Positions 14,181 through 60,252 of a stretch of DNA of 64,000 nucleotides are shown one piece after another; positions within the stretch are counted from its first letter, which is position 1; each line of letters opens with the position of its first letter. The stretch lies in the IMG/VR virus record IMGVR_UViG_2880395615_000010; one strand, written 5' to 3'. The DNA is from a virus (lineage: Duplodnaviria; Heunggongvirae; Uroviricota; Caudoviricetes). The notes under the pieces were generated by a model. The model saw only the letters and a list, made by a program, of their open reading frames with translations. It did no database searches and was not told where the DNA came from. Made by a program: the position numbers and the translations under genes.

Positions 14181-14206
14181 CTCTCGCGCCAGTCTGAGGG
14201 CAAAAT

Positions 14207-14638: not shown

Positions 14639-14651
14639 GTATTACCTCCGT

Positions 14652-15404: not shown

Positions 15405-15411
15405 ATCGTCC

Positions 15412-15807: not shown

Positions 15808-16379
15808 CGCTTTATCACAATCCTTAGTTGTTGTTTCAACGCATAGCCCAGTTCTTTTGGCAGACGTTCTCGCCGGATACGGTTAACGTTCTCATCAAAA
15901 GCCTGCTTCAGTGGGGCCGCCATCGGAATTTTAACCACCTGAATGGGAAGACGATTACGCTTTTTCCTTCCTTTATCGTCATTGCCCTTCGCATACCGGG
16001 CTTCTGGCAAACGTTGCATAACATGCCAGCGCCCATTATTTAATCGCTGGATGAATGCCCGCTGATAACGATGCTGACCGGCTTTAAGTATGCTGTTCGG
16101 ACGATGACCAAGCATCCTGATCCCCAGCTTAATAGCAGGGAGATCACCGCGGTTAACGATAATTCTGGCATTCGGATTTCTGACCGTGGCCCGTTTCAGT
16201 CTGGACCGTTCCTTTACCAGTTTCCGGCTCACCCTGGTCTCCCGGGCAACCTGTGATGAAGACTGATTAATCGCCGTTGTAGCCACGCGGTTAATAGCCA
16301 TTGCTGAAGCCGACGGAATGGCGTTTTTACGAACCCGGCTCAGATTTTCAATCGCCTGATCAAGCCCTTTTATCGCCAT
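15804..16379 (-). CDS. Z: Tail completion protein Z, 191 aa
   Basis: Lambda Z-like size and position. Confidence 0.85.
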   Translation of the reverse strand: MAIKGLDQAIENLSRVRKNAIPSASAMAINRVATTAINQSSSQVARETRVSRKLVKERSRLKRATVRNPNARIIVNRGDLPAIKLGIRMLGHRPNSILKAGQHRYQRAFIQRLNNGRWHVMQRLPEARYAKGNDDKGRKKRNRLPIQVVKIPMAAPLKQAFDENVNRIRRERLPKELGYALKQQLRIVIKR

Positions 16380-16393
16380 AATTCACCCTGCGT

Positions 16394-16747
16394 TTATCGT
16401 CGCCGGTTAACTGCGGGTGGTTGCCCACGGTTCAGCCAGAGATAACAACTGCCCCCGTCATCCGGAGAAACACGATCCACCCAGAACGTCTCACCATTAA
16501 TGGTCAACGTGTCACCACGCCGCACGGCACGAACCGTATCCGTCCGCACAAATAATGACGGGCTGCTTCCTTCAATACGGATCCCACTACTGGCAAAACC
16601 CAGCGACTCCGGATCGTCAAAAACCCCCTGAACTTCGCCGCCACGCTGTGCACCGGAGGTGAACTGCGCACTGATGCCCATCACTTCAACAATCGTACTG
16701 TCCACCCCGGCAAGGGCGGCATCAAAGGCATTCTGAAAATCACGCAT
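16394..16747 (-). CDS. FII: Head-tail connector protein FII, about 117 aa
   Basis: Lambda FII-like; likely start at MRDFQNAFDAALAG as in copy B. Confidence 0.75.
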   Translation of the reverse strand: MRDFQNAFDAALAGVDSTIVEVMGISAQFTSGAQRGGEVQGVFDDPESLGFASSGIRIEGSSPSLFVRTDTVRAVRRGDTLTINGETFWVDRVSPDDGGSCYLWLNRGQPPAVNRRR

Positions 16748-17162
16748 AAACAGCCATTCCACCATCAACGTGTGTTTTTGCATCTGAGGACATAATCAGA
16801 ATCACCCGACCAACATCCGCAAGCTCAACGGATTCCCCCGTTTCACCATCAACGCCACAGAGATGGAGGCAGGTCAGAACTCTGATGCGCGTTAACGCGC
16901 CGGATGTTTCCTCACGAACATCATGAGCCGCGTTTTCCCTCTCCCGGATATCCATATTCATAACCTGTACATCATCGCCGGATGACTGCATTTCCTCTTC
17001 CCATTCTGCCACCCGCTGCGCTATCTCTGCGGCACTCCCGGATATATCCGGCTCACGCCCCAGAATCAGGGCCAGTTCATCAAGCCGTTTCAGATTTTGC
17101 TCTTTCGTTGCCATATCATCCCCCTGTGAAAAAAGACACGGGGGCATTTCGCCCCCGCTCAC
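16740..17162 (-). CDS. FI: DNA packaging protein FI-like, 140 aa
   Basis: Position between E and FII; C-terminal half differs from copy B. Confidence 0.6.
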   Translation of the reverse strand: MSGGEMPPCLFSQGDDMATKEQNLKRLDELALILGREPDISGSAAEIAQRVAEWEEEMQSSGDDVQVMNMDIRERENAAHDVREETSGALTRIRVLTCLHLCGVDGETGESVELADVGRVILIMSSDAKTHVDGGMAVYA

Positions 17163-17165
17163 GGA

Positions 17166-18194
17166 TTATTTCACCTGTACCACCACAAACTCATCCGGGT
17201 CCGGCAACACCATCAGCGGCGCGGACTGCGTCATGGTAAATTCACGGGCGGGATCCCCTACCGTCAGCCAGTGTTTCGGATAACGGGAAGAGGCCACCAC
17301 ACCTTCGGACAACGCCTGCGCATCCTGAATGGCACCATAGCAACGAATGCCCTCTGCTGCCGTATTCCCCAGGACCAGCGAGCCCTCAGGCAGATAACGT
17401 TTTTCGGTACCGTCCTCTGCCACATAAGACGTTTTTGCCACCACAATGGCCAGATCGCCGTAATACCCTTTGAAGGACACCACCGCGCCCAGGTCTTTCA
17501 CCGCTGTTTCGAGTTGCGAATTAGAGCCGCGACGGGTATCCAGTTTTTCGCGGAACAATTTAAAGCCATTCAGCAGACGCCAGACGGTACCGTCCATAAT
17601 GGCAATATTCACAAGACCGCTGGCCTGGTCGCAGTAGAGGTCAAGATCATGTGTAGGATCGAACGTGTCACGATCCTGTTTTGACCACTCCTTACCACTA
17701 CCCTGAGTGATGTTATTCTTCGTCGACCTGCCAAAATCGACCTCAATTTTCTCGAACTGGTCTCCTTCCATCGTGTATTTGCCATACAGCACGGCATTCA
17801 CCGCCTGCATTTCTTCCACCTGGACAATGGCGTGCTCTTCCTGTTTGAGGTTATCAGTGATGATACGCAGACGACGGTAGGCCGGGTCGTTCAGCTGAGC
17901 CGGATCTTCACCGGGAAGACGCTCAACCGCCTGCTGGTAATTAAATTCGTGTTTCGGCTTGACGTAGCCCGGACGTAACACGCGGGTTTCACCACCACGA
18001 TGACGCAGCACTTTTCCTTCAACAACCGGGGAGACATAGGCCGCCACCGGCGTTTTTCCGGTAATTTTGTCCAGCATCACCTCTTCGGTATGGAAATTCA
18101 CCGTACGGCGGAAAAACAGCTCCAGAAACAGCGCACGAAATTTCACTTTTTGTTCGGTATAACCGAGTAACTGGCGGGTCGTAAACAATCCCAT
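17166..18194 (-). CDS. E: Major capsid protein E, 342 aa
   Basis: Strong resemblance to lambda E from memory (GYVKPKHE..., ...DPAREFTM.QSAPLM...). Confidence 0.9.
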   Translation of the reverse strand: MGLFTTRQLLGYTEQKVKFRALFLELFFRRTVNFHTEEVMLDKITGKTPVAAYVSPVVEGKVLRHRGGETRVLRPGYVKPKHEFNYQQAVERLPGEDPAQLNDPAYRRLRIITDNLKQEEHAIVQVEEMQAVNAVLYGKYTMEGDQFEKIEVDFGRSTKNNITQGSGKEWSKQDRDTFDPTHDLDLYCDQASGLVNIAIMDGTVWRLLNGFKLFREKLDTRRGSNSQLETAVKDLGAVVSFKGYYGDLAIVVAKTSYVAEDGTEKRYLPEGSLVLGNTAAEGIRCYGAIQDAQALSEGVVASSRYPKHWLTVGDPAREFTMTQSAPLMVLPDPDEFVVVQVK

Positions 18195-30948: not shown

Positions 30949-31025
30949 TGGCGCGTTGTACTGGATTCGAACCAGTGACCGATTGCTTAGAAGGCAATTG
31001 CTCTGTCCGGCTGAGCTAACAACGC
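30949..31025 (-). tRNA. argO: tRNA-Arg (anticodon UCU)
   Basis: Perfect cloverleaf: acceptor gcgttgt/acaacgc, anticodon loop CTTCTAA, T-loop TTCGAAT, encoded CCA. Confidence 0.8.
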
Positions 31026-31038
31026 AGGATACAGATAA

Positions 31039-31116
31039 TGGACCGCCTTCGGGGACCCGAACTCCGCGCAACCAGCTTCGAAAGCTGGCGCTCTTTCCTG
31101 ATGAGCTAATGGCGGT
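31039..31116 (-). tRNA. argN: tRNA-Arg-like (anticodon read as UCG), imperfect stems
   Basis: Perfect anticodon stem ccagc/gctgg with loop TTTCGAA, but one mismatch each in the acceptor and T stems. Confidence 0.5.
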
Positions 31117-31122
31117 ATGTGA

Positions 31123-31198
31123 TGGTGGCCCTTGCTGGATTTGAACCAGCGACCTGGCGATTATGAGTCGCTCGCTCTCACCACTGAGCTAAAGGGCC
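31123..31198 (-). tRNA. ileZ: tRNA-Ile2 (anticodon CAU, ileX/ileZ-like)
   Basis: ggccctttagctcagtggtgagagc...ctCATaa...ggttcaaatccagcaagggccacca, very close to E. coli ileX from memory. Confidence 0.85.
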
Positions 31199-35292: not shown

Positions 35293-35448
35293 TTACTCCT
35301 CAGGTTCGTAAGCTGTGAAGACAGCGACCTCCGTCTGGCCGGTTCGGAGTCGTACCTCGCAGAGGTCTTTCCTCGTTACCAGTGCCGTCACAATGACGGT
35401 TAAACAGATGACGATCAGGGCGATAAGCATCGCCTTTTGCTGCTTCAT
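35293..35448 (-). CDS. hok: Hok/Gef-family type I toxin, 51 aa
   Basis: MKQQKAMLIALIVICLTVIVTALVTRKDLCEVRLRTGQTEVAVFTAYE matches the Hok pattern; SD AAGGAG upstream. Confidence 0.75.
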   Translation of the reverse strand: MKQQKAMLIALIVICLTVIVTALVTRKDLCEVRLRTGQTEVAVFTAYEPEE

Positions 35449-35739
35449 AGCCTGCTTCTCCTTGCCTTTCGGCACGTAAGAGGCTAACCTACGTGTGTAG
35501 AGCATAGATATGGCCTCAGATTAATGTTAAGCGTCTTGCCGGACGCGTAATGTTAACTGGGGCTTTTCTCTATCTGCCTTTTGGTGTTCATGCCTGAGAC
35601 AGATAGCCTCAAGCACCCGCAGCAATTCTACTTAACTCTCCTTTTCCCGCAAACCGTTTTTATCCCCAGCGGCAAATCGAATACACCACCAGCGTCACCG
35701 CCATCGCAATTCCTACCGTTGTGAATGCCTCAGGCCAGG

Positions 35740-36393
35740 TCATTGATTCACCTCCTGCGACAGTTCAGGCAACGCTTCCAGTGATGCTTTCACAAACCAC
35801 GCTGCCTGAACTATAACGCCATGGATCCAACGCAAATCAGCATCGCGATCTTTCTTTTTCATCTTTTCGCTACTTAAAGCCTGGCTTATGTGGCTGCGCA
35901 CCAGGTCTTCATGTAAATCCTTCGCATCCTCAATGGTGAAACCACCAGGCAGAAGAGCCGGAGTTACCGGAGAGCTGGTTGACGCTTCCGGGATTTTCCG
36001 AAAATTATTGGTTGACGAATCTTTATTTTCCCGAAAGTTTCCGGACTGAAGCATGGCTTCGCGGCAATCGTTCCAGCCTGTAGCGTATGCAGCCGCTTTG
36101 CTGCTGCCTTCAACTGGCGCATCCTGCCAATACATTTCTTCCGGCACTATCGGCGCTGGAGGGGCGGCAAATAGATATCCGCCAAAGTCAGGAAGCTCTC
36201 CAATGGCCTGTACGAACTTTTGTTTGCCTACGTCAACTCCTAATGGGTAATGAGCTATAATCTTTGCCACCGGCTCTGCTTCCAGCGATGCCAGCGCAAT
36301 CCGTGCCAGTTCCATTTGTTCACCACGGGTAAGCCCGTTTTCAAGCGGATTTTTAATGAACAATTCAATACGTTCTTTGGTAATAGTGGTCAT
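35740..36393 (-). CDS. Hypothetical phage protein, 217 aa
   Basis: ORF with SD; no recognisable motif. Confidence 0.5.
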   Translation of the reverse strand: MTTITKERIELFIKNPLENGLTRGEQMELARIALASLEAEPVAKIIAHYPLGVDVGKQKFVQAIGELPDFGGYLFAAPPAPIVPEEMYWQDAPVEGSSKAAAYATGWNDCREAMLQSGNFRENKDSSTNNFRKIPEASTSSPVTPALLPGGFTIEDAKDLHEDLVRSHISQALSSEKMKKKDRDADLRWIHGVIVQAAWFVKASLEALPELSQEVNQ

Positions 36394-36403
36394 GTGTTAC
36401 TCC

Positions 36404-36667
36404 TTAACCCGCAGTGCTTTCAACTGATGAGGGGAACAAAATCTTTTCATCAAACCCTGCATTCATATCATGAACAGCAACACACCAATCCATCGACGAA
36501 CGATTATCAAGAGCCTCCATGATTTCATCCATGCGGCGTAGGTCATACAGGTAAATGCTTTTATCGCCAATGGTGTAAAAGCCAATTTTTTTCGGTGATG
36601 GACAGCGATCAAGAACTTCCTGTAATTCGTTCAACCATGCCCGTTCTTTTTTTGTCAAAGTTGCCAT
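36404..36667 (-). CDS. Hypothetical phage protein, about 87 aa
   Basis: Start assumed at MATLTKKERAWLNELQ overlapping the upstream stop (ATGA). Confidence 0.4.
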   Translation of the reverse strand: MATLTKKERAWLNELQEVLDRCPSPKKIGFYTIGDKSIYLYDLRRMDEIMEALDNRSSMDWCVAVHDMNAGFDEKILFPSSVESTAG

Positions 36668-36668
36668 A

Positions 36669-36887
36669 TCAGTTTTCCTTATACGGATTAATTTTATTGT
36701 GCAGTGTGTTGAACGACGCCCATACAACGTCGGTATACAATTCAGTAACTGGCTCAATTATTTTCCCGATTGCCCAGACAAAAATTAGAGGGGATATCGG
36801 TATCATCAATACGATAAACAGAATGAGAAACCAAAATTCTGTCGCCCTACTTTTTTGCGGATATTCTTTTCTGAATAATGTAGTCAT
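36669..36887 (-). CDS. Small membrane protein, 72 aa
   Basis: One long hydrophobic segment FWFLILFIVLMIPISPLIFVWAIG. Confidence 0.4.
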   Translation of the reverse strand: MTTLFRKEYPQKSRATEFWFLILFIVLMIPISPLIFVWAIGKIIEPVTELYTDVVWASFNTLHNKINPYKEN

Positions 36888-37236
36888 TTCTTACCGCCCT
36901 TTCGGGCGGCCTCCCGACATTAATCGTTGTGGTAACTCATGGCTTCATTTGCAGCATCAACCGGATCAACCTCCCACCAGCAATAATTTGGTGCGTTTCC
37001 TTCAGGTGTCCACGGTTCTAATTCATTTTTTGCCACATTCTCGTCGCCAGTAATTTTAAAAATCTGCTCAGAGAATTTTTCACCCACTCGTTATATTTTT
37101 CAGTGTTAATAATTTTCTGTGTATTTGACATAGATATACCTCCAGTTAAGGATTAAATTTTATTTACAGTGCTGAACTTAATTATTCAGATTTGGATTAT
37201 GCTTTCTCTTCACGAAGTTCCGATTGTTAATTTGGC

Positions 37237-37659
37237 TCACAACAGCACCTTCTGAAAATTACCCTGATAGAAAGCCAGTACACGCTGCATAGCTTCGCTC
37301 TTCCGGCACTCGCTACAGATTATGTTTTGACGCCTGTCGTAGCGGCGTATTTCTCCGTCTGGTAATGACCAGATAAGGTCAGGATCAACCACAGATGGTT
37401 TCTTCAGATTTGCCCTTGAGAGTTTTTTGCGGGCGTTTTGCCAGTCCTTACGCGCCTGTTCAGACGGGAACAACCCGTAACCAGAGTTGTATACATCGCC
37501 GCTGGCAACCAGCTCTCTTGCGAGAACGCTCATCAGATATCTTGTCGCACCTGTCTTGACTTCCAGTTGCCGTAACGTCTCACGCCCACTCTGGCGTACG
37601 AGTTCAACAACCTGCCCTTTAATTTTTTCTCGCTCTTCTTGTGTAAAAACTTTTGCCAC
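37237..37659 (-). CDS. Hypothetical protein, 140 aa
   Basis: ORF immediately downstream of the replication initiator; CxxC at C-terminus. Confidence 0.45.
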   Translation of the reverse strand: MAKVFTQEEREKIKGQVVELVRQSGRETLRQLEVKTGATRYLMSVLARELVASGDVYNSGYGLFPSEQARKDWQNARKKLSRANLKKPSVVDPDLIWSLPDGEIRRYDRRQNIICSECRKSEAMQRVLAFYQGNFQKVLL

Positions 37660-37699: not shown

Positions 37700-38776
37700 T
37701 TACCCCCTGAAGCCCAGTGGAATTTCGGTATCTGGTTCAGAAATGTGATTCACGCAACGCTGGTTGTTCGTACCGCTTACCGGGAGCAACCAGGGGTTCT
37801 CAAAATTCCGGTCCGGTCCTAAAAACGTCGTCGCTCGCTGAACAAATTCCGTTCCCGTTTTCCCGGTAGCCGCCAAGTATCTTGCGTAACGCCTCACGCC
37901 ATCCAGCATGGCCTCTGGTGGCACCCCCTCGCGTAATCTGGCCTTCCAGGCACTGAAAGCGGATTTCTTCGGGTTTGCTCCGGCACGCAACGGGTACTCC
38001 CGCCAGACCTGTTCGAACACATCCGGATAATCCACTCGTCCCACAGACTGCCCGGTGTTTTCCGGGACTACCCGATCGGCTTCCCGCAGAATGGCGGAAT
38101 CGGCTTCAGGCTGCTGCAGTTGGTGTGATTGCTCCGGCCTTGCGGTCATCACCTGCTGCACAGCGCCCGAATCGGCTTTCAGCGCATACGCTGAATCGGC
38201 TTCCGGTGTCGTGCCTGCTGGCTGACCAAGATTGACGGTCTGAACATCCCCTGCCTGGTTCGTGGCGTTTTTTACGCCATGGACCATAGTGTTTTGATCT
38301 TCTTGATCTGTATCTTTATCTGTATCTTTATCTGTCGTTACTCGTCGTGACATGTGCGTGACATTTCGTGACGCGCCGTGACAATCGCCATTTTGTTCCC
38401 GCTTTCTTTCCCTCTCTCGCTGCGCCCTCTTGCGCTCTGCAGGAGATTTTGCGGTTTGCGAAATATTGCCGTTGTCCTCTTTAAGCACCTGGCGTTTTTC
38501 CCATCCAGTGATTAAATCACCATCAAGTACCCGCCCCTGCATCGTCTGCAAAATTGAATCAATTACCTCTTCTGTCACGTCGAGCGCACTTGCCAAATCT
38601 TCTGTCGTGACATCAATGTGACCTCGCGTGACATTTCGTGACGCGCTCACCAGGAGGTGGATATACACTGCCATCACTGTTGCAATTGGCTGCCCTGACA
38701 CCCTGGCAATTGTTCGCCACTTAGGGTCATTTGGCATGTCATGCCATAATCTGAGCCAAGCGTTAGCCATACTCAC
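37700..38776 (-). CDS. Replication initiator/organiser protein (lambda O-like role), 358 aa
   Basis: Position after the cro-like/YdaT-like genes; internal iteron clusters; conserved C-terminal region (VFEQVWREYPLRAGANPKKSAF...). Confidence 0.65.
   Translation of the reverse strand: MSMANAWLRLWHDMPNDPKWRTIARVSGQPIATVMAVYIHLLVSASRNVTRGHIDVTTEDLASALDVTEEVIDSILQTMQGRVLDGDLITGWEKRQVLKEDNGNISQTAKSPAERKRAQRERERKREQNGDCHGASRNVTHMSRRVTTDKDTDKDTDQEDQNTMVHGVKNATNQAGDVQTVNLGQPAGTTPEADSAYALKADSGAVQQVMTARPEQSHQLQQPEADSAILREADRVVPENTGQSVGRVDYPDVFEQVWREYPLRAGANPKKSAFSAWKARLREGVPPEAMLDGVRRYARYLAATGKTGTEFVQRATTFLGPDRNFENPWLLPVSGTNNQRCVNHISEPDTEIPLGFRG
38346..38382. repeat. Iteron cluster 1: four CGTGAC repeats at 10-11 bp spacing
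   Basis: cgtgac at 38346, 38357, 38367, 38377. Confidence 0.55.
38609..38645. repeat. Iteron cluster 2: four (C)GTGAC repeats at 10-11 bp spacing
   Basis: gtgac at 38609, 38620, 38630, 38640; 21-mer gcgtgacatttcgtgacgcgc identical to cluster 1. Confidence 0.55.
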
Positions 38777-38841: not shown

Positions 38842-39267
38842 TCAATGTACTGCCACAGCATTTCCTGCCGGGCCACCACGGTTCATCTGATTGAAACCGG
38901 CGATTGCCACTGCGACAAAATCATCAGCGTCTCTCACCAATCGCTCCCGCGTCTCCACCAGCTCCCGAAAATAAGCTGAACTGTGGCTGCGCATTCTGGC
39001 CACCAGCAAAGGTGGCATTGCCTTTTCGATCGCTGGTAACAACGCCTGAATTTTTTCAACTGCATCAGGGGTGTCTTTCTCTACCCAGCGGAAAATTTTC
39101 TGGGTATTGCGAGCCAGGGCTTCCGGATGGCTGTCGTCATACAGTTCAGGAAACGTCATACCCAACTCAAAATAAGCCTGGGTTATTCCAGCTGCTGGAA
39201 CTTTTTCGCCATCAGGACGCGCCCAGGCATTCATCGCCATGCGGATGTGTTCATGCTTGATTTTCAT
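38842..39267 (-). CDS. ydaT: YdaT-like protein, 141 aa
   Basis: N-terminus MKIKHEHI matches my recollection of K-12 YdaT; overlaps the upstream HTH gene. Confidence 0.6.
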   Translation of the reverse strand: MKIKHEHIRMAMNAWARPDGEKVPAAGITQAYFELGMTFPELYDDSHPEALARNTQKIFRWVEKDTPDAVEKIQALLPAIEKAMPPLLVARMRSHSSAYFRELVETRERLVRDADDFVAVAIAGFNQMNRGGPAGNAVAVH

Positions 39268-39532
39268 GAATCAAGCTCCTAGTAAGTGGTTGTGTTAACG
39301 TTTTGGTATCTTCCAGCTCGGGCCAAATATTCATCCAATCAAAAGGCCTTAGTTGCTGACGTGTAACTTCACCATTACTGGCTCGCTCAATAAGGACACA
39401 TAACGATGCCCCTAAGATTTGACCTTTACTCAATGCCTTTCTTAGATAACCGATGCTAGTACCACACTCACATGCAAACATACGCTGTTCATCTGACGAA
39501 AGAGAATTGAGAAATATTCTTAATTCTTCCAT
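39251..39532 (-). CDS. Cro/YdaS-like HTH regulator, 93 aa
   Basis: HTH segment CGTSIGYLRKALS; divergent from the repressor-like gene. Confidence 0.6.
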   Translation of the reverse strand: MEELRIFLNSLSSDEQRMFACECGTSIGYLRKALSKGQILGASLCVLIERASNGEVTRQQLRPFDWMNIWPELEDTKTLTQPLTRSLIHENQA

Positions 39533-39632: not shown

Positions 39633-40052
39633 ATGGACAAATATGAATTTAGACGACAACAACTCATCAAAATTCGTGATGAGAAATGCGATGGTAAAGC
39701 GGTTAACGTGGCCAGAAAGATCGGTCGCGAGCCTTCTTATGTATCAAGAATGTTGTACCCAGAGGGGAAAAAAGGAAAAAAACGGATCGCTGATGATATG
39801 GTGGAGATTATAGAAGAGTCCTTTGGGTTACCCCGGGGATGGATGGATGGTATCGTTTCATCATCAACGAACACAGCCTCCAATTATGAAACAAGGGTTC
39901 TAACGCCACGACAACGTATTTTTTTAGATCTCTTAGACGAACTGCCAGAAAGTGAAGCGGATAACTTATTAAAAACTCTTGAAGAGAAAAAACAGTATTA
40001 CAATATGATCTACGAAGAAATCCGTAAAAAGAAAGCACAAAACGCATCATAA
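39633..40052 (+). CDS. Prophage repressor-like HTH protein without a peptidase domain, 139 aa
   Basis: HTH KAVNVARKIGREPSYVSRML; no Ser/Lys dyad region. Confidence 0.55.
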   Translation: MDKYEFRRQQLIKIRDEKCDGKAVNVARKIGREPSYVSRMLYPEGKKGKKRIADDMVEIIEESFGLPRGWMDGIVSSSTNTASNYETRVLTPRQRIFLDLLDELPESEADNLLKTLEEKKQYYNMIYEEIRKKKAQNAS

Positions 40053-49901: not shown

Positions 49902-50501
49902 TCAGAACTTATAACCGACACCCACGATGAAACCGTCAGTGCGCCAGTCGCCACTGCCGGAGCCTTCATAAGCGACATCAACGGCCACTGATTCGGTCGG
50001 GTTAAACTGCACGCCAGCCCCCCACGCCAGAGATGTGTTGCTGTAGCGAGCGTCATCACTTCCGGTCAGCACGTCGTGCGTTTTCCTCTTGTTGTCAGTT
50101 ACGCGAAGATAATCCCCGGAGAAAGTCGACACACGGCTGTAAGCCATACCCGCCATCGCATACGCGCTGAACCATTCATTCACGCGCACAGACGGCCCCG
50201 CCATCACGCTGAACCAGCGGTTACGCACGGAATCTTCATGCCAGCGGATATCGCTGTAACGGGTCAGCTGGCGATTCTTGTCTCCTGCATAGCTGAATGA
50301 CGTCACCAGCCCCAGTGTGTCCGTAAACTCATAACGGTATTTCACGTTAATCCCGTTCAGATCATCGCTGCCGGGAACGTTCGTCGAGGCATGAAGATAC
50401 CCCGCGCTCAGCGTGGACTGATGTTCAGATGCCCATGCAGGCGCACCGGATACAGCCAGACAAATGGCTGCGGAAAAAATGGCGGCATAAAGTTTACGCA
50501 T
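49902..50501 (-). CDS. lom: Lom-family outer membrane protein (copy B)
   Basis: Near-identical to the copy A lom. Confidence 0.85.
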   Translation of the reverse strand: MRKLYAAIFSAAICLAVSGAPAWASEHQSTLSAGYLHASTNVPGSDDLNGINVKYRYEFTDTLGLVTSFSYAGDKNRQLTRYSDIRWHEDSVRNRWFSVMAGPSVRVNEWFSAYAMAGMAYSRVSTFSGDYLRVTDNKRKTHDVLTGSDDARYSNTSLAWGAGVQFNPTESVAVDVAYEGSGSGDWRTDGFIVGVGYKF

Positions 50502-50568
50502 AATTACCTCTCGCTTTTCTGCAATAAAAAAGGCGCCATTTCTGGCGCCCGTATATGGGTTATAAAAT

Positions 50569-53500
50569 TCAGCTGATACTGATGCCTGCTGTGGATTTTT
50601 TCATCACCACAACCAGCAGATCGCTGATACTTGCTGTGGGATACCAGTTATTTACCAGCCATGCTGACACCGAAAACTCCAGCGTCATGTGACCGTGACC
50701 GGCAGGCATATCAATAACGCCACTGTAAATCAGCGTATTATCCAGCGCGGTACGGTTATAAATTTCAGCACCGTTTTTCCGCACTATCAGACGGCATGAG
50801 GAGTAAATATCAGTATGCTCTCTCTCATGTTTAGCGCCGCTGAATGCCACCGCCGGAATAACAATTTGCCGGTCAAACGGCTGATCGTCATAAACCCTGA
50901 CGGTAATGGTCCCTGATGGCCACCGCTCCGGTGCACGGGAATCCCGGGGGAAAGCTTTGCCCACTGTTTTAACGAGATCGCCTTCAATCTGGTTCGCGGA
51001 CAGTTTTCCCAGAACCCGACAGTTCTCGTTAATCGTGACGTTGTTGAGCGTCCCGGAATTCGCATTCACGTTACCGCTGATATCAGCATTTCTTGCGGTC
51101 AGACTGCCCTCCGGCGTCAGGGAAAACGTCGGGGGATTGCCGGACGAGGTGATACTCACCGCAAACAGCCGCTTCAGGAACACATCGTTCATGAACAACT
51201 GATTCCCCTGCGCCACAAATAACGGCGTGGTGTTGCCGTCCTCCGGGTTAATCATCGCAATACGGTCAGCCAGCAGCAGTATGTTGCTCAGGGGCTGGCC
51301 ATCAGTATCCTCAATCCCCGCTCCAATACCGGCAACATAGGGAATGCCGTCTTTCGTTTTTTGAACCTTCAGCATGTACAGCGCAGCCAGGTCATCATTT
51401 GTGTCCTTCTGCACGCGCTGTATCTGCTGTATGGTGGCGCTCTGGTCTTCCAGCGTTTTACTGACCGTCTGTGTGATTTCATTGCGGGTTTCGGTGATGG
51501 TGGTCTTCATCTCCGCCATCTCATCCGCAAGCTGGCTGTTGTCTATCAGCTCCCACAGCCCCTGAGCCAGATGCAGTTTTCCTATTTTTTCCCGGAAAAA
51601 TTCCAGATACCCTTCACCATCATTGCTGGGCTGCCCGCTGATTTCCACAAACGCAGATTTCCCCACCAGGTTGACGCTGCGCACGTAAAACCAGAAATCC
51701 TTCCCGGGCTTAATGTGCGGGCCGGATACACTCCACTGACTGCCGGTCCCCAGATAACGGGCAGAGGTTTCCACCTGAGATATGTCTGCGATTTTTGTCT
51801 CCGAAAACCAGAACTCAAACTGTACCGTCGGGTCATACACCGCAAGACGCGGGACCGCTGTTATCTGAAAATAGCCCGGTGTCAGCTCAATCTGTGACGG
51901 CGCTGCCGGTGCGGCAATCCGGAACGATACCGACGCCGGATCGCCCTGCTGCCCCCACGCATTTACCGCCCGGACTGTCAGCCTGTAGTTCCCCGGCGCC
52001 AGTTGCGTGAAGCGGTATGTGGTTTCCGTCGTCCGGGCCGTGCTGACCAGCCGCTCACTGCCGTCATCCGCGACCACGGTCAGGCGAAGCATAAAGCTCA
52101 CGCCCTTCACCACCTTCGGCGTGTCCCATTTCGCCTGTGCCAGATACTGACCGTCAGCCGCGCTCACCTCCACCGTCAGGTGCTGCACTGCCGGTGGAAT
52201 AACGCTGTTCAGGGTGCCTGACTGCGGCTCAAAGCTGGCCCCGTTATCCACGATGGCTTCTTTTTCCGGTACGTGCTGCACCGCCGTGATGGCAAAGGTG
52301 CCGTCCGTGTTTTCCCGGATGGAGACACAGCGGAACAGGCGACGACGCAGTGACGGCAGGGAGAGTCCCCATACACCGTATGTCTCCACACCATCAGGCA
52401 GGGTGCTGACCTGTATCCGGTCCGGCGCGGGGTGTGCAGTGATGGCCACGCTCACCGGCTTACCGCTGCCGTTAATCAGGTTCACCGTGGCGGCACCTGT
52501 CTCCGGCAGGGTCACCTCACGGTCCAGTGTCAGGGTGCGGCTGGCGGCATCGATGGACAGGATACGTCCGCCGGTCATGGTCCCGGCATAGTCGTTATCA
52601 CAGATTTCAATAATGTCACCGGGTGTGTGACGCAGCCCCTGTGACCCGAGCGTGAAATCCACCGTCTGCGTTTCCAGCAGTCCGGTCTTTATCACCCACA
52701 GCCCGGCACGGTGGGCCTGACCGCGACTGGTGCAACCGAACGCATCCATCTTCAGCAGGTTGCGCCCGTAGCGCAGTATGGCTTCCGGGTCTTCCACCAG
52801 TTCCGTGGAGGTCTGCCAGCCGTTCTGCGGGTCGGTGTAATTCACCTCCACCGCCGTGTGGCGGTCCTTCAGGGCGCTGAAGCTGTAGCGAAACCCCACG
52901 CCGTTATCATCCACCACCACATCGCAGTTGGTGTACGGCCACACCACATCCGACGGGCGGTCCTGAACGAACGTCAGCGTCTGGCCGTTCCATACCGGCA
53001 TACAGCGCATCGCCGAGCAGAAATCACTGAGCACATCCCATGCCTTACGCTGTTGTGACAGGTACGCATTAAAGGTCATCCGCGGCTCGGTCCCCCCGAA
53101 ACCATCCGGCACCGTCTGGTCGCAGTACTGCGCAATGGCATACAGCGCCCATTTGTCCACGTCTGCCGCCCCCAGACGTTTTCCCATGCCGTAGCGCTGG
53201 TGAGTCAGCATGTCCCACAGGCACCAGGCCGGGTTATTGCTGTATGCCGGTTTCAGGCTGCCGTCCCAGATACCGCTGTAAGTGCGTTTTTCCGGGTCAT
53301 AGTTTGACGGTACCTGAATGATGCGACCGCGGATATGGTAGTTCACCGTCATCTGCTGGCCACCAAACTGCTCCGCATCCACCTGCAGCCCCACAATCGC
53401 CGTGTTCGGGTAGCACTGTTTCACATCGATGATTTCGGTGTATGACGACCAGAGCGTCTTATTCTGCAGCTGGTCCGGGGTGCTGTCCGCTGTCTCCCGG

Positions 53501-54045
53501 ACCATCCGGATGTTAAAGGGCCGGGGAGGCAGATTATCCAGAATCACCGACGCCAGGTACTGTGAGGTGGTCTTGCCGTTAATGGTGACATCCTTTTCCG
53601 TCACCCAGTTACCGTTACGCTGCAACTGAATCAGCAGTCGGACAGAAGAGGGATTACGGTCGCCCTTTGAGGTGGTCTCCAACAGTGACTGCACCCCGAA
53701 GGTGACCCGCAGGCGGTCAATGTTCGCGGATGTAATGGTGCGCGTCACCGGCTTTGCCTTCGTCACTTCCACGCCCAGTGCGGTTTCAGCTCCGGAGGAC
53801 TCAAAGCCTTCAGGTGGTGTCTGCTCCTGCTCCCCGGCGCGCCAGACCGCTGTCACACCATGTATCACAGGATTACCGTCCGTGTCCGTCAGCGGGGTTT
53901 TGTTCACCAGGATACTCTGCAACCCCTTCACCGGACCTTCAATCGGCCCTTCACCAATGGCATCAATCACGCTCATCATCTGCGTGGACTTAAGATTGTC
54001 CTTTGCCTCAACCGGCGTGTGCGCCCTGCCTCCACCTTTACCCAT
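50569..54045 (-). CDS. J: Tail tip host-specificity protein J (copy B), 1158 aa
   Basis: Co-linear with copy A J but the last about 130 aa differ. Confidence 0.9.
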
Positions 54046-54178
54046 AATGTTCCTCTCAATTGGTATTATTAATCGCAGTGATAGGATATTGCACAGCTAT
54101 TGCGCGATATCATCAGAACGCTGTTTGTTACCCTGTAACCAGCAAGCTCAGTCTGTTAACGGAATTAATGAGGGTTTT

Positions 54179-54706
54179 ATGAAATGTAAAATCATTGCTG
54201 CCATTGCCATGCTGACAGCAGCATCATGCGGATACGCAGCAGAACAGGAAGTCCCAATGAACCTTGTCAGTGCTGACGGAAAAGAAGTCAGCATTGGAAA
54301 AATAACCATTCAGGAGACCCCCTACGGTCTGCTGTTCACACCAGCCCTTCACTCTCTGTCTGAAGGCATTCATGGTTTTCATGTGCACGAAAAAGGAAAT
54401 TGCGCCCCGGCACTGAAAGACGGAAAACCGGTCGCAGCATTATCGGCTGGCGGTCACTTTGACCCGAAAAACACCGGCAAACATCTTGGCCCCTGGTCTC
54501 CGGATGGACACCTGGGCGACCTCCCTGCGCTGTTCGTGACGCATGACGGAAAAGCGAACTACCCGGTCCTGGCCCCGAGACTGAACTCATTAAAAGAGAT
54601 TAAAGGGCGTTCTCTCATGCTTCATGCTGGCGGTGATAACCATCATGACCATCCGGAGCCCCTGGGCGGTGGTGGTGCGAGAATGGCCTGCGGCATCATT
54701 CAATAA
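54179..54706 (+). CDS. sodC: Periplasmic Cu,Zn superoxide dismutase SodC, 175 aa
   Basis: Signal peptide then [11 protein letters not shown]...GGHFDP...GDLP...[12 protein letters not shown] motifs; SD GAGGG; only in copy B. Confidence 0.85.
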
Positions 54707-54713
54707 TCAGTCA

Positions 54714-54742
54714 GGTAAGGGGCGGGCCCCTTACCTTTATTC
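54714..54742 (+). terminator. Intrinsic terminator after sodC
   Basis: ggtaaggggcgggccccttacc followed by tttatt. Confidence 0.55.
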
Positions 54743-54896
54743 CTCAGGACGATAAATCCTTTCTCCCTGAAAAGAACGGCACATCCTCCCTCTCTGAGTT
54801 AATGTTTTTGTCGTGACATAAGAATAATTCCTTACACTCAATCTTCGTAACGCTCCCGCAGTTCCTGTCCGTGAGCACTGCGGGATTTTTTCGCTT

Positions 54897-55577
54897 TTAT
54901 GCCTGCCGCCCGATAACCACCACCTTCCCGCCCCCGCCTTCATCACGGGTGCTGATGTCCTGGGAGATTCGCCGGGAGCCAACCAGCATTTCACCGTAAG
55001 GCACCGGCATCGGGTTCCCCTGGGCAATCATGTTATCCAGCGACGAAAAGTACGTGTTCTGTTTACCGTTATCCGTTGCCCTGTATTCCGGTGTTTTTGG
55101 CTTCGGGGCAAGCATCTGAGCCACACCACCCAGTATCATGCTGGCACCCAGTGAAAACAGCATCGTGGTGGCAGAAAAACCGCCGGCACTCAGCGCTGCA
55201 CCCCAGGCTGCCATCGATGCTCCGGCCGTGAAGAAAGAGCCCACGATGGCTGCCGCCCCCAGCACAATCTGCAGTCCACCCTTTCCGGCCCCGGCCAGTC
55301 GCGGCACAATATGGATGACCGCCCCCTCACCCAGCTGTTCGTGAAGACGGGCGTACACCGCCTCCGGTGCCGTGTCCTCACCGCGAATACGTATCTGGTA
55401 CCAGCCTTCGTTCATCTGACGGCGGAATCCCGGCATCTGCATCGACAGGGCACGGATGGCTTCCGCTGCCGTGTTCACATACAGGCTGAGGCGGCGGCCA
55501 AATCGTTGCAAATCCCCGTGAAGGCAGATGCGTGCCAGTGGCGGTGACGCCAGAGGGAGTGTGTGCGTCGCTGCCAT
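54897..55577 (-). CDS. I: Tail assembly protein I (copy B)
   Basis: Homologous to 8844-9515. Confidence 0.8.
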   Translation of the reverse strand: MAATHTLPLASPPLARICLHGDLQRFGRRLSLYVNTAAEAIRALSMQMPGFRRQMNEGWYQIRIRGEDTAPEAVYARLHEQLGEGAVIHIVPRLAGAGKGGLQIVLGAAAIVGSFFTAGASMAAWGAALSAGGFSATTMLFSLGASMILGGVAQMLAPKPKTPEYRATDNGKQNTYFSSLDNMIAQGNPMPVPYGEMLVGSRRISQDISTRDEGGGGKVVVIGRQA

Positions 55578-56218
55578 TTATCGGTATACCTCTCTCGTTT
55601 GCTCAGTTGTTCAGGAATATGGTGCAGCAGCTCGCCGTCACCACAGTAAATGGCGGCATGATTCGGCACCGATGAACCAAAACAGCACAGCAGCACATCG
55701 CCCGGTTGTGCTGATGACAACGGCACCTGATACAGCCCTGTGGCCTCCAGATTATCCAGATAGAGATTCTGACCGTGACGCCACCAGTCATCCCCGCGAT
55801 GAAAATCCGGCATCTCAATCCCCGCCAGATGATAAGCATCCCGGAACAGCGTGTAACAGTCCGTCACCCCGTGCTCAAAGCGCCGTCCTGTCAGATGTGG
55901 CACACAGCGGAATTTATGAATTTCCCCCCGGCAGACCAGCCACCAGAACAGTGCACTTTTTATCTGCAGCCGCCGGTCGGCCTCGCTCAGCCAGGGCAGA
56001 CCACCGGGATGACTGTGGACCAGTGCCACAATCTCCCCCTGCATCTCTGCCCGCAGCCAGTCTTCCGGTGCGATACGAAAATACGCCTCCGGCTCTGCAG
56101 AGATATTCACACAAGGGATATACCGTTCCCCCTCCGGCGTGCTTATCACGAAGCCGCACGACTCCGCAGGCGCACACCGCCGGGCATGCGCCAGAATCGC
56201 TGATTCAGTCTGTGTCAT
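55475..56218 (-). CDS. K: Tail assembly protein K (copy B)
   Basis: Start at MTQTESAILAHARRC as in copy A; the ORF-track N-terminal extension is probably not translated. Confidence 0.75.
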   Translation of the reverse strand: MTQTESAILAHARRCAPAESCGFVISTPEGERYIPCVNISAEPEAYFRIAPEDWLRAEMQGEIVALVHSHPGGLPWLSEADRRLQIKSALFWWLVCRGEIHKFRCVPHLTGRRFEHGVTDCYTLFRDAYHLAGIEMPDFHRGDDWWRHGQNLYLDNLEATGLYQVPLSSAQPGDVLLCCFGSSVPNHAAIYCGDGELLHHIPEQLSKRERYTDKWQRRTHSLWRHRHWHASAFTGICNDLAAASACM

Positions 56219-56228
56219 AAAACAGGAT

Positions 56229-56927
56229 TTACTGCGAAAGTTTATTGATGGAAAGGAAACCGCCAAAATTGACCGCCATGCCGCGCATCTCACACCCGCG
56301 CATGCATTTACTGCATCTGTCCTTCCGGATATCCGTGGTGGGGTTGTCGAACTCATCCGCCACTGCCGGACCGTTATACCCGCATTCATCGCCCCGGTAA
56401 TCCCACATACAGGTGTTCGCCAGCATGATGCGACCGGGAAACAGCGCCCCGTCCGTCTCCGTCGGTGTCGCCAGCACAAACGAGGCCGTCATGGCCGTCA
56501 GCGATGACATCTGCTCCACCACCCACCGGTCCGTCAGCTCCTGCTCAGGGTCTGCCTCAGGATTGCCTGCCACAAAATTCACCGCATCCAGAAAACGGGC
56601 ATACACCCGGCGGCGGACCACCGTGGCCCCCACCAGGCTCTGCAAATCCTCCGCCATCCCGGTGACAAGGCCGAAAAGATTGGACACCGTCAGCGACGGG
56701 CGGGCACTGCTGCCCTTTCCGTTCATCTCAAAGCCGCTGCCCTCAATCGGGTACGCCTGATATTCACGCCCCTGCCAGGTCACCGCCTCCCCTTTTTCAT
56801 TCAGCTCATTGCAGAAAAAATACCGCTCACCACCCTGTACCGTCAGGTCGATTTCCCAGAGTACCACCCGCGGTGACTGCTCTGATTTAACCGACTCGTT
56901 CAGACTTTCTTCGTGAATATCCTGCAT
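56229..56927 (-). CDS. L: Minor tail protein L (copy B)
   Basis: Homologous to copy A. Confidence 0.85.
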   Translation of the reverse strand: MQDIHEESLNESVKSEQSPRVVLWEIDLTVQGGERYFFCNELNEKGEAVTWQGREYQAYPIEGSGFEMNGKGSSARPSLTVSNLFGLVTGMAEDLQSLVGATVVRRRVYARFLDAVNFVAGNPEADPEQELTDRWVVEQMSSLTAMTASFVLATPTETDGALFPGRIMLANTCMWDYRGDECGYNGPAVADEFDNPTTDIRKDRCSKCMRGCEMRGMAVNFGGFLSINKLSQ

Positions 56928-57256
56928 CAGTTCACCACCTGCTTAAACTCGGCACTGAATTCAACCCGCAGCATGCGAACCCGTGATGACCAGGCGGCAC
57001 AGGTCACCTTTATCTGCCGCCAGGCATAAGGCGGTGTCCACAGAAACGCCTTCCAGCCACCGTGCTCTGCCAGGAATGCCTCCAGATGTCGGGCCTCCTC
57101 CCGGGTCACGGAAAGCGTCACACGGTATGTTTTCAGGTCAGCATTCAGCCCCGCCGCCATACGCTGCGAATACCCGTCACCAAAACGCACTTCACGCACC
57201 GATGGCTGCGAGTTCACCTCCATATCCGGCTTCACTTTCCAGCGAAATGTTTTCAT
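56927..57256 (-). CDS. M: Minor tail protein M (copy B)
   Basis: Homologous to copy A. Confidence 0.85.
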   Translation of the reverse strand: MKTFRWKVKPDMEVNSQPSVREVRFGDGYSQRMAAGLNADLKTYRVTLSVTREEARHLEAFLAEHGGWKAFLWTPPYAWRQIKVTCAAWSSRVRMLRVEFSAEFKQVVN

Positions 57257-60226: not shown

Positions 60227-60252
60227 CTCACGCGCCAGTCTGAGGGCAAAAT

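What the first reader, a model, noticed from the sequence alone, without database searches (positions are those of the whole stretch)
35740..37659. No helicase loader gene between the initiator and the nin region; four uncharacterised genes instead
In lambda-type replication modules the initiator is followed by a helicase loader (P or a DnaC-like protein). Here the next genes are 140, 72, about 87 and 217 aa with no ATPase motifs I can see; the 72-aa one has a single transmembrane segment. Either replication relies on host loading through the initiator's conserved C-terminal domain, or these genes supply an unrecognised function. A membrane protein in this position could also be a superinfection exclusion factor.
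Basis: inference. Interest (0 to 1): 0.4.

Follow-up and report, generated by a model that had tools for sequence, protein, structure and literature searches.

The report
Lambdoid prophage lacking a helicase-loader gene
This E. coli prophage really has a replication initiator but no helicase-loader gene; the genes in that position are ordinary accessory genes, and the initiator ends in the same short tail as the host protein DnaT, so it most likely borrows the host loader DnaC.

Summary
None matches a helicase or loader family, and no DnaC- or lambda-P-like sequence occurs anywhere in the 64 kb.

The genes are ordinary ren/nin-region cargo. The 140-aa protein is DUF977, a homologue of lambda Ren. 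The 72-aa protein is DUF4014 with one membrane segment. The 87-aa and 217-aa proteins belong to PHROG families of unknown function.

The informative part is the initiator. It carries its own origin: two GTCACG iteron arrays and an AT-rich repeat. It ends in "SEPDTEIPLGFRG", the C-terminal tail of host DnaT.

Across related loci, initiators with this tail are followed by a true DnaC homologue or by no loader. Initiators with a lambda-O-like tail are always followed by a lambda-P-like loader. Phage Tritos has a 98% identical initiator followed directly by DUF977, has no loader gene, and forms plaques on K-12.

The best reading is an initiator-only module that recruits host DnaB-DnaC. O-only lambdoid modules were already reported in 2025 as an unexplained class, so the absence itself is not new. 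The link between tail type and loader type is a testable lead.

The parts
37700..38776 (-). Replication initiator ('phage replisome organizer'), 356-358 aa. It has an N-terminal origin-binding helical domain (about aa 3-80), a basic helix, a disordered linker of about 110 aa, a C-terminal helical bundle (aa about 250-320) and a disordered tail.
   Evidence: phrog_3729 'replication initiation protein' matches full length at E = 9e-256. The C-terminal half matches phrog_1701 'DnaD-like helicase loader'. There is no Pfam hit. AlphaFold2 models. RefSeq names relatives 'phage replisome organizer'.
37703..37777 (-). Codes for the C-terminal tail (aa 334-358), '...NNQRCVNHISEPDTEIPLGFRG'. This is the same motif as the extreme C-terminus of E. 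coli DnaT ('[20 protein letters not shown]'). I call it tail type T1.
   Evidence: NCBIfam DnaT equivalog model positions 156-179 of 179. PDB DnaT chains 6aep and 2ru8. BLASTP gives 14 of 25 identical, end to end, E = 2e-6. The motif is conserved in homologues only 45-58% identical overall, while the adjacent linker varies.
38606..38642 (-). Origin iteron array I: four GTCAC(G) repeats spaced 10, 10 and 11 bp, inside the initiator gene.
   Evidence: The pattern search gives 2 hits in the window against 0 expected.
38336..38382 (-). Origin iteron array II: five GTCACG/GTAACG repeats spaced 10, 10, 11 and 10 bp.
   Evidence: Both arrays are conserved in divergent initiator genes with the same N-terminal domain, with GTCACG changing to GTAACG throughout in some lineages.
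38297..38336 (-). AT-rich 12-bp repeats, (GATAAAGATACA)x3, directly after array II. This is the probable DNA-unwinding element. It encodes the TDKDTDKDTD stretch of the protein.
   Evidence: Tandem Repeats Finder reports period 12, 2.9 copies. Copy number varies between alleles, 3 here and 5 in L004.
37237..37659 (-). 140-aa DUF977 protein (called 'LygF' in some records). It is the Ren homologue at the ren position. It has an N-terminal winged-helix-like part and a C-terminal ECRKSEAMQRVLAFY motif.
   Evidence: Pfam DUF977 E = 9e-31 over the full length. phrog_142 'Ren-like exclusion protein' E = 1e-47. BLASTP to lambda Ren gives 12 of 20 identical in the C-terminal motif, E = 9e-7.
36920..37131 (-). 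Frameshifted remnant of a 70-aa gene (phrog_4659).
   Evidence: The 55-aa ORF matches phrog_4659 positions 17-70 of 70. RefSeq marks it 'frameshifted'. An intact 70-aa copy is present in L004.
36669..36887 (-). 72-aa DUF4014 protein with one membrane segment. Function unknown.
   Evidence: Pfam DUF4014 E = 4e-25. phrog_1832. Hydropathy. No PADLOC hit.
36404..36667 (-). 87-aa protein of phrog_1714. Function unknown.
   Evidence: phrog_1714 E = 1e-50 over the full length. No Pfam, NCBIfam or PADLOC hit.
35740..36393 (-). 217-aa mosaic ORF. The N-terminal ~115 aa match phrog_60, phrog_5117 and phrog_660. The rest matches other PHROGs of unknown function.
   Evidence: PHROG hits. RefSeq splits it into a partial pseudogene plus a 176-aa CDS. 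No Pfam, PDB or PADLOC hit.
35293..35505 (-). mok/hok type I toxin gene, which ends this block. A terminator-like hairpin follows at 35224-35207.
   Evidence: NCBIfam Hok family E = 7e-13. RefSeq names it hokD. Terminator scan.
38842..39532 (-). Upstream context: a Cro/YdaS-like gene (39251-39532) and a cII/YdaT-like gene (38842-39267). A pR-like promoter lies at 39585-39558, and a divergent CI-like repressor gene at 39633-40052 (+).

Best explanation
This is an initiator-only ("O-only") lambdoid replication module.

**Proposed mechanism**
1. The initiator binds the two phased GTCACG iteron arrays that lie inside its own gene. The adjacent AT-rich repeat is opened. (Inferred by analogy with ori-lambda.)
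2. The initiator's C-terminal part is a small DnaT/DnaD-like helical bundle plus a disordered tail ending in IPxGFRG. It brings the host DnaB-DnaC complex to the opened origin. Host DnaC therefore acts as the loader, and the phage needs no loader gene of its own. (Inferred from comparative evidence.)

**The genes at 35740-37659** take no part in helicase loading. They are a Ren homologue (DUF977), a dead small gene, a DUF4014 membrane protein, an 87-aa protein and a 217-aa mosaic protein. They are exchangeable early-operon cargo between the replication gene and hok/DUF968/rusA/Q.

**Shown here**
- gene content and the absence of any loader
- the iteron arrays
- the tail motif
- the optional DnaC cassette in relatives
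- the tail-to-loader association
- the viability of a loaderless relative

**Inferred**
- that the tail, or the C-terminal domain, contacts DnaC or DnaB-DnaC
- that replication depends on host dnaC
For: 1. **No loader or helicase homologue** in the four proteins or anywhere in the window.
2. **An optional loader cassette.** A prophage with a 96% identical initiator, including the whole C-terminal domain, has a 246-aa gene 6 nt downstream. That gene is IstB/DnaC family (Pfam 1.5e-19) and 49% identical to E. coli DnaC over its full length. DUF1627 and then the same DUF977 follow. The junctions lie at gene boundaries with unrelated intergenic sequence, which is a mosaic joint and not a recent deletion.
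3. **Frequencies in IMG/VR loci**.

| Initiator type | Tail | No loader | DnaC-like next | P-like next |
|---|---|---|---|---|
| Window type | T1 | 71 | 2, plus one fused initiator-DnaC ORF | 0 |
| SfV type | T1 | 72 | 0 | 0 |
| P0104 type | T2 ('...EPLD...ALDCxDW..') | 0 | 0 | 71 |

4. **Independent lineages.**
   - T1 followed by a DnaC homologue: host dnaT-dnaC; Rac ydaU-ydaV, where YdaU ends ...LPDSAIPPGFRG and YdaV is 50% identical to DnaC; P0081, P0112, P0137 and L123; Shigella phage 75/02.
   - T1 followed by nothing: SfV, 2H10, L112, L121.
   - T2-like tail followed by a P-like gene: P0148, L101, L104, L105, L125, L149. Lambda O itself ends KLDLTNTDWIYGVDL and is followed by P.
5. **Host range of the tail.** In the species-level scan, T1 tails appeared only in Enterobacterales, the order whose dnaC gene was domesticated from a phage (PMC5109545). 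Homologues from Pseudomonas, Bordetella and others have other tails. Vibrio and Burkholderia phage hits stop before the tail.
6. **Homology of the C-terminal region.** hhalign of the C-terminal core plus tail against DnaT and DnaT-like domains gives probability 77%, E = 2e-5, over 79 columns. Alleles with the same N-terminal domain carry a bona fide Pfam DnaT domain instead (PF17948).
7. **A loaderless relative is viable.** Phage Tritos has a 98% identical initiator followed directly by DUF977, and no loader in its complete 46-kb genome. It makes virions, formed a plaque on MG1655 hsdR- and was propagated to confluent lysis (PMC9928086).
8. **The origin is embedded in the initiator gene.** The iteron pattern gives 2 hits against 0 expected and is conserved with covariation in divergent homologues.
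Against: - No experiment or interaction prediction links the tail to DnaC.
- The 2026 preprimosome structures place the DnaT C-terminal domain on PriA and on ssDNA. Their authors favour the DnaT N-terminal domain as the DnaB/DnaC recruiter (PMC13377028).
- Prior work, which I recall but did not check, implicated the DnaT tail in ssDNA binding.
- The tail match is short, and its database-wide E-values are weak (0.0077 in NCBIfam, 0.36 in the PDB search).
- IMG/VR loci are highly redundant E. coli prophages. The independent evidence is roughly 11 T1 lineages against about 8 T2 lineages, not hundreds.
- This particular prophage shows some decay (one frameshifted small gene), so its own replication competence is unproven.
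Confidence: 0.62

Rival explanations
1. The initiator mimics DnaT and works through the host replication-restart machinery. Its DnaT-like C-terminal domain and tail dock on PriA (with or without PriB) at the opened origin. PriA then directs DnaB-DnaC loading. Host DnaC is still the loader, but the direct partner of the phage protein is PriA.
For: - The DnaT C-terminal domain docks on PriA and forms a filament on ssDNA in the preprimosome structures (PMC13377028).
- Tail and core resemble DnaT.
- In a related O-only lambdoid phage, LLS, growth is enhanced by RecBCD (PMC12315714). That fits a link with recombination-dependent, PriA-type replication.
Against: - The strict synteny of the tail is with dnaC homologues, not with priA or priB.
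- The core of this initiator is far diverged from the DnaT domain that contacts PriA. Pfam DnaT is not detected.
- An origin-bound initiator does not obviously need a fork-recognition factor.
Confidence: 0.17
2. One of the downstream genes is an unrecognised helicase loader or adaptor that replaces P or DnaC. DUF977 is the most likely candidate, because it is tightly linked to the initiator.
For: - The initiator and DUF977 are adjacent with a constant gap of about 43 nt in 71 of 74 evaluable loci.
- Natural initiator-DUF977 fusion ORFs exist in the protein database (P0054).
- DUF977 has no tested function.
Against: - DUF977 also follows modules that do encode a DnaC homologue: L004, Shigella phage 75/02 and Rac ydaV-ydaW.
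- SfV/2H10-type solo modules lack it and carry a PerC-like gene instead.
- It is homologous to lambda Ren. From prior knowledge, Ren is not needed for lambda replication, since lambda dv plasmids need only O and P.
- It has no ATPase motifs.
- The other genes of the block are absent from Tritos.
Confidence: 0.08
3. The loader gene was lost by deletion in a decaying prophage, so the module is simply non-functional.
For: - The neighbouring small gene is frameshifted.
- The identical early region in strain DEC5B lies in a prophage with a frameshifted integrase and several truncated lysis-region genes.
- Relatives with a DnaC gene exist.
Against: - The loaderless joint is the majority form (71 of 74) and is shared by a plaque-forming phage with a complete genome.
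- The joint has its own intergenic sequence and ribosome-binding site, and is not a scar.
- The integrase ORF is intact in this window.
- An independent family, SfV type, is loaderless in 72 of 72 loci.
Confidence: 0.05

Closest known systems
O-only lambdoid replication modules (phage LLS and 34 of 314 Enterobacterales lambdoid phages; Zheng, Casjens, Davidson, Amundsen and Smith, Genome Res 2025, PMC12315714)
   Same: [quoted passage not shown] The authors state that none of these phages has been studied experimentally and that their replication is not understood.
   Different: I did not check whether LLS carries this same initiator family. That paper calls the gene a lambda O homologue. The initiator here has no Pfam Phage_rep_O domain. 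It belongs to the 'replisome organizer' N-domain family and has a DnaT-like C-terminus.
Lambda O-P-ren module
   Same: The gene order is cro, cII, initiator, then a Ren homologue. The origin (iterons plus an AT-rich region) lies inside the initiator gene. The initiator's C-terminal part is the one expected to recruit the helicase complex.
   Different: There is no P gene. The N-terminal domain, the iteron sequence and the C-terminal tail all differ: IPxGFRG here, against ...LDLTNTDWIYGVDL in lambda O. Initiators with lambda-O-like tails always had a P-like gene next.
Rac prophage ydaU-ydaV-ydaW and Shigella Stx phage 75/02 'primosomal protein I'-DnaC-LygF modules
   Same: The initiators have the same C-terminal IPPGFRG tail, and a DUF977 gene lies downstream. 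The immunity-region types (YdaS/YdaT-like) are the same.
   Different: Those modules carry a DnaC homologue about 50% identical to host DnaC directly after the initiator. This window does not.
E. coli DnaT (primosomal protein i) and the dnaT-dnaC operon
   Same: The last ~20 residues are the same motif. There is probable distant homology of the preceding helical domain. In loader-carrying relatives, the gene next to the tail-bearing gene is a DnaC homologue, as in dnaT-dnaC.
   Different: The DnaT N-terminal oligomerisation domain and the acidic PriB-binding linker are absent. The phage protein instead has an origin-binding domain with its own iterons. It is not a DnaT orthologue: the NCBIfam score is 15.9 against a cutoff of 201.
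Iteron-plasmid initiators (for example pSC101 RepA, RK2 TrfA, R6K pi) that recruit host DnaB-DnaC without a loader of their own
   Same: One element-encoded initiator binds iterons next to an AT-rich region and relies on the host helicase and loader. (Prior knowledge; not tested here.)
   Different: The folds are unrelated. Those plasmids generally also use host DnaA, and I did not look for DnaA boxes here.

Membership tests
Lambda P helicase loader (Pfam PF06992 Phage_lambda_P) | Sequence match to the P family in a gene directly after the initiator | tested here: not met
   No Pfam hit for any of the proteins. tblastn of lambda P and two P-like proteins against the whole window gives best E = 0.45. 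The same tests detect P-like genes in relatives.
DnaC/DnaI/IstB AAA+ helicase loaders (Pfam PF01695) | AAA+ fold with Walker A and B motifs; match to IstB_IS21 or DnaC | tested here: not met
   No Pfam or NCBIfam hit. tblastn with five DnaC sequences gives best E = 0.27. No Walker A motif occurs in any early-region ORF.
DnaB-type replicative helicase or primase-helicase (as in P22 gp12 or N15 RepA) | A large P-loop ATPase gene in the replication module | tested here: not met
   Pfam and PHROGs give no such hit for the ORFs between cII and hok. There is no Walker A motif there. RefSeq annotates none in the prophage. No DnaB sequence was used as a direct query.
Ren / DUF977 (PF06163; phrog_142) | Full-length match to DUF977, the C-terminal ECRxSxAMxRVLAxY motif shared with lambda Ren, and a position directly after the replication genes | tested here: met
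   Pfam E = 9e-31 against a cutoff of 22.1 bits, with a score of 107 bits. phrog_142 E = 1e-47. The motif aligns to lambda Ren. Position. The Ren function (escape from Rex exclusion) was not tested.
DUF4014 (PF13198) | Full-length match to the 72-residue model | tested here: met
   E = 4e-25, positions 1-72 of 72.
O-only (initiator-solo) lambdoid replication module | An initiator gene after cro/cII | tested here: met
O-only (initiator-solo) lambdoid replication module | No loader or helicase gene anywhere in the phage | tested here: met
   for this window. for the complete genome of the close relative Tritos.
O-only (initiator-solo) lambdoid replication module | The module supports phage growth | not testable with these tools
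   Indirect only. Tritos, with a 98% identical initiator and the same joint, forms plaques and was propagated on K-12 (PMC9928086).
Lambda-type origin inside the initiator gene | Phased iterons followed by an AT-rich segment within the initiator coding sequence | tested here: met
   Two arrays with 10/10/11-bp spacing and a 12-bp AT-rich repeat. The pattern gives 2 hits against 0 expected. It is conserved in divergent homologues. Binding and unwinding were not tested.
DnaT (NCBIfam NF002770; Pfam PF17948 DnaT DNA-binding domain) | C-terminal tail ...SEPDxxIPPGFRG | tested here: met
DnaT (NCBIfam NF002770; Pfam PF17948 DnaT DNA-binding domain) | DnaT three-helix ssDNA-binding domain | tested here: inconclusive
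DnaT (NCBIfam NF002770; Pfam PF17948 DnaT DNA-binding domain) | DnaT N-terminal oligomerisation domain and acidic PriB-binding linker | tested here: not met
   BLASTP finds only the tail. The NCBIfam score is 15.9 against a cutoff of 201. The N-terminus is a replisome-organizer domain.
Known superinfection-exclusion or defence proteins | Match to a described defence or exclusion family | tested here: not met
   PADLOC gives no hit for the five proteins. PHROGs give no exclusion annotation apart from the Ren-like name of DUF977. A new exclusion function for DUF4014 cannot be excluded.

The most novel reading that the evidence does not exclude
The short C-terminal tail ...(S/T)xPDxxIPxGFRG may be a portable docking peptide for DnaC-type loaders, or for the DnaB-DnaC complex. 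It is shared by host DnaT and by at least four architecturally different phage initiators.

A second tail type, lambda-O-like ...LD..(D/E)W.., would be the equivalent peptide for P-type loaders.

This would explain three things:
- why T1-tailed phages can drop their loader gene in Enterobacterales;
- which part of DnaT could recruit DnaB/DnaC to the preprimosome, a step stated to be unknown in 2026 (PMC13377028);
- where the dnaT-dnaC operon came from: a domesticated phage initiator-loader pair whose origin-binding domain was replaced.
Probability: 0.35. Interest if true: 0.75.

Novelty: new member of a known kind. Interest (0 to 1): 0.5.

Why it matters
Taken alone, the missing loader is a documented but unexplained feature of about a tenth of enterobacterial lambdoid phages.

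The comparison done here turns it into a concrete hypothesis that is cheap to test. The last ~13 residues of the initiator predict which loader the phage depends on. Phages with the DnaT-type tail can live off host DnaC.

If that holds, it would:
- explain how O-only lambdoid phages replicate, including serotype-converting SfV and many prophages of pathogenic E. coli;
- give a rule for annotating replication modules;
- point to the element of DnaT that hands DnaB-DnaC to restart complexes.

Tried and rejected
**Searches that added little**
- The search for homologous proteins with only the C-terminal 134 aa returned almost only fragments of the same protein and was useless for diversity. The full-length search was used instead.
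- The full-length AlphaFold2 model has mean pLDDT 58. I did not run a fold search on its N-terminal domain.
- PADLOC on the five proteins gave nothing. A PDB sequence search of the 217-aa protein gave nothing.
- Literature searches for DUF977, LygF, YdaW, YdaU and 'DnaT-like' found no functional work. Wrobel and Wegrzyn 2002, 'Evolution of lambdoid replication modules', is not held. I could not check whether a phage origin for dnaT was proposed there.

**Ideas considered and set aside**
- A recent deletion of the dnaC cassette. The junction sequences differ on both sides.
- SfV orf40 as a hidden DUF977 or P homologue. It is a PerC-like protein with no similarity to DUF977.
- The RefSeq name 'dTDP-6-deoxy-L-hexose 3-O-methyltransferase' for part of the 217-aa ORF. 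No Pfam or NCBIfam search here supports it.

**A script error, corrected**
My first pass at the tail/loader table miscounted P-like genes, because their longest ORFs start more than 160 nt upstream of the initiator stop.

**Not used:** The search of protein representatives.
Full report
**What is there**

The finding lies in the rightward early operon of a lambdoid prophage of E. coli. The 4.4 kb around it is 100% identical to E. coli O55:H7 DEC5B. All genes of interest are on the minus strand.

In transcription order:
- a pR-like promoter at 39585-39558
- a Cro/YdaS-like gene (39251-39532)
- a cII/YdaT-like gene (38842-39267)
- the initiator (37700-38776)
- a 140-aa gene (37237-37659)
- a frameshifted remnant of a 70-aa gene (36920-37131)
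- a 72-aa gene (36669-36887)
- an 87-aa gene (36404-36667)
- a 217-aa ORF (35740-36393)
- mok/hok (35293-35505), followed by a terminator-like hairpin
- then DUF968, RusA, a Q-like antiterminator and a DNA methylase

It missed the dead 70-aa gene.

**Is a loader really missing?**

Yes.
- Pfam, PHROGs and NCBIfam give no helicase, AAA+, DnaC/IstB or lambda-P hit for any protein between cII and hok.
- tblastn of E. coli DnaC, four phage DnaC homologues, lambda P and two P-like proteins against all 64 kb gives nothing better than E = 0.27.
- No early-region ORF has a Walker A motif.

The same reference set readily finds loaders in related loci, so the negative result is meaningful.

**What the four genes are**

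| Gene | Identity | Evidence |
|---|---|---|
| 140 aa | DUF977 (Pfam 9e-31); phrog_142 'Ren-like exclusion protein' | |
| 72 aa | DUF4014, one membrane segment | |
| 87 aa | phrog_1714, function unknown | |
| 217 aa | patchwork of PHROGs of unknown function; RefSeq splits it into a pseudogene piece and a CDS whose enzyme name no search here supports | |

The C-terminus of the 140-aa protein, ECRKSEAMQRVLAFY, aligns with ECRQSAAMKRVLAVY of lambda Ren. It also sits where ren sits in lambda, directly after the replication genes.

None of the five proteins hits PADLOC.

Across 80 loci with a nearly identical initiator, DUF977 is almost always present, but the other genes come and go. Phage Tritos has none of them. 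They are exchangeable cargo, not a conserved functional partner of the initiator.

**The initiator is the informative part**

It matches phrog_3729 'replication initiation protein' end to end. Its C-terminal half matches phrog_1701 'DnaD-like helicase loader'. Pfam does not cover it.

AlphaFold2 shows:
- a helical N-terminal domain
- a long disordered linker
- a confident 3-4-helix C-terminal bundle
- a disordered tail

Inside the gene lie two arrays of GTCACG repeats spaced 10, 10 and 11 bp, at 38606-38642 and 38336-38382. The second array is followed by three copies of an AT-rich 12-mer.
- The array pattern occurs twice in the window, against zero expected.
- It is conserved in every divergent initiator gene with the same N-terminal domain. 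In some lineages every copy has changed to GTAACG.

This is an origin embedded in the initiator gene, as in lambda.

**The tail**

The protein ends ...VNHISEPDTEIPLGFRG. E. coli DnaT ends ...[17 protein letters not shown].

The motif is kept in homologues only 45-58% identical overall, while the residues just before it vary freely. That pattern is typical of a short docking motif.

The protein family is modular:
- The same N-terminal domain is joined in other alleles to a true Pfam DnaT domain (PF17948). Those alleles have a different, acidic tail, ...EPLD...ALDCxDW.. (T2).
- The core found here occurs with either tail.
- A third core, found in Rac YdaU and in P0081, carries the DnaT-type tail (T1).
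- Three unrelated N-terminal domains are found with T1.

**Tail type predicts the next gene**

A prophage with a 96% identical initiator has, 6 nt downstream, a gene 49% identical over its full length to host DnaC. DUF1627 follows, then the same DUF977 and small genes as here. The junctions are at gene boundaries and have unrelated spacers.

Counts in IMG/VR loci:

| Initiator type | Tail | No loader | DnaC homologue next | P-like gene next |
|---|---|---|---|---|
| Window type | T1 | 71 | 2, plus one fused ORF | 0 |
| SfV type | T1 | 72 | 0 | 0 |
| P0104 type | T2 | 0 | 0 | 71 |

By lineage:
- T1 followed by a DnaC homologue: host dnaT-dnaC, Rac ydaU-ydaV, Shigella phage 75/02, P0081, P0112, P0137 and an Enterobacter prophage.
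- T1 followed by nothing: SfV, 2H10, and a Superficieibacter and a Scandinavium prophage.
- T2-like tail followed by a P-like gene: Yersinia, E. albertii, Serratia, Rahnella, Erwinia and Pantoea prophages.
- Lambda O itself ends KLDLTNTDWIYGVDL and is followed by P.

I saw no exception. In the species-level scan, T1 tails occur only in Enterobacterales.

**Interpretation**

A phage that depends on a P-type loader must carry one, because the host has none. A phage whose initiator is built to work with a DnaC-type loader can use the host's copy, so the phage copy is optional and is usually lost.

It argues against the second, a hidden function in the four genes.

That loaderless modules work is shown by Tritos. 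Its initiator is 98% identical and is followed directly by DUF977, and its complete genome has no loader. It produced virions and a plaque on MG1655 and was propagated.

**What remains inferred**

- No experiment shows that the tail touches DnaC.
- The 2026 preprimosome structures show the DnaT C-terminal domain on PriA and ssDNA. Their authors suggest the N-terminal domain recruits DnaB/DnaC, and state that this step is unknown.
- A PriA-mediated route therefore remains a serious rival (0.17).
- A hidden loader (0.08) and simple decay (0.05) are unlikely, for the reasons above.

**Novelty**

Zheng et al. (Genome Res 2025) already reported that phage LLS and 34 of 314 enterobacterial lambdoid phages encode only an O homologue. 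They noted that these phages are unstudied and their replication not understood. The absence is therefore a known class, and this prophage is a further member of it.

I found nothing in the searchable literature about the DnaT-type tail on phage initiators or about its association with loader type. One older paper that might bear on a phage origin of dnaT could not be read.

I set interest at 0.5. The flagged genes are ordinary. The comparison yields a sharp, testable explanation for an open question, and a possible handle on how DnaT recruits DnaB-DnaC.

Noticed in passing
window 2942-17985 versus 48207-63999: Two long stretches are 77-97% identical in the same orientation. The window therefore holds the late (tail) regions of two lambdoid prophages in tandem. 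The prophage studied here ends with an intact 341-aa integrase ORF at 44633-45658.
   Followed up: partly
window 46181-46930 and 47255-48127: Between the two prophages lie a 249-aa ORF and a 290-aa ORF. The 290-aa ORF is built of ~47-aa proline-rich repeats (IPPAPNWPAPPPPVQNEQSRPLPDVAQRLVQHLAEHGIQPAR...); the DNA repeats span 47484-48106. From memory they look like the type III effectors EspJ and TccP/EspFU of O157:H7/O55:H7 prophage CP-933U/Sp14. No search was run to check this.
   Followed up: no
window 38297-38336; L004 about 4260-4330: The AT-rich 12-bp origin repeat varies in copy number between alleles, 3 copies here and 5 in L004. This changes the TDKD repeat of the initiator protein by 8 residues. 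The origin sequence and the protein linker are thus coupled.
   Followed up: partly
L015 (IMG/VR); P0054, P0131, P0138: Natural read-through fusions exist: initiator-DnaC (609 aa, L015), initiator-DUF977 (P0054) and DnaT-domain initiator-lambda-P-like (P0131, P0138). They could be sequencing errors or real fusions. The P0131/P0138 sequences could be used for structure prediction of a tail-loader contact.
   Followed up: no
window 35293-35505 (-), hairpin 35224-35207: A mok/hok type I toxin gene ends the block. In prophage Tritos of strain LF82 the homologous hokD was reported as transcribed about 3800-fold above the prophage background in lysogens (PMC9928086).
   Followed up: no
window 30949-31198 (-): Three tRNA genes (Arg-TCT, Arg-TCG, and a CAT anticodon that RefSeq calls Ile) lie downstream of the DNA methylase gene, as in Stx-type lambdoid phages.
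   Followed up: no
window 40097-40133: A perfect 16-bp-stem palindrome lies just beyond the end of the CI-like repressor gene. It scores as a terminator on both strands.
   Followed up: no
window 35740-36393; L003 23208-23861: RefSeq annotates the 3' 531 nt of the 217-aa ORF as 'dTDP-6-deoxy-L-hexose 3-O-methyltransferase'. Pfam, NCBIfam and PDB searches give no support for any enzyme, so the name looks like an annotation artefact.
   Followed up: partly
L116, L117 (Castellaniella, Pseudothauera prophages): Betaproteobacterial initiators with the same N-terminal domain end in a third tail...HGG(Y/F)(E/D)xR(N/D)YGxGG(A/R)L. They are followed by a DnaC-like gene. Tail-loader pairing may therefore extend beyond the two types described.
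   Followed up: no
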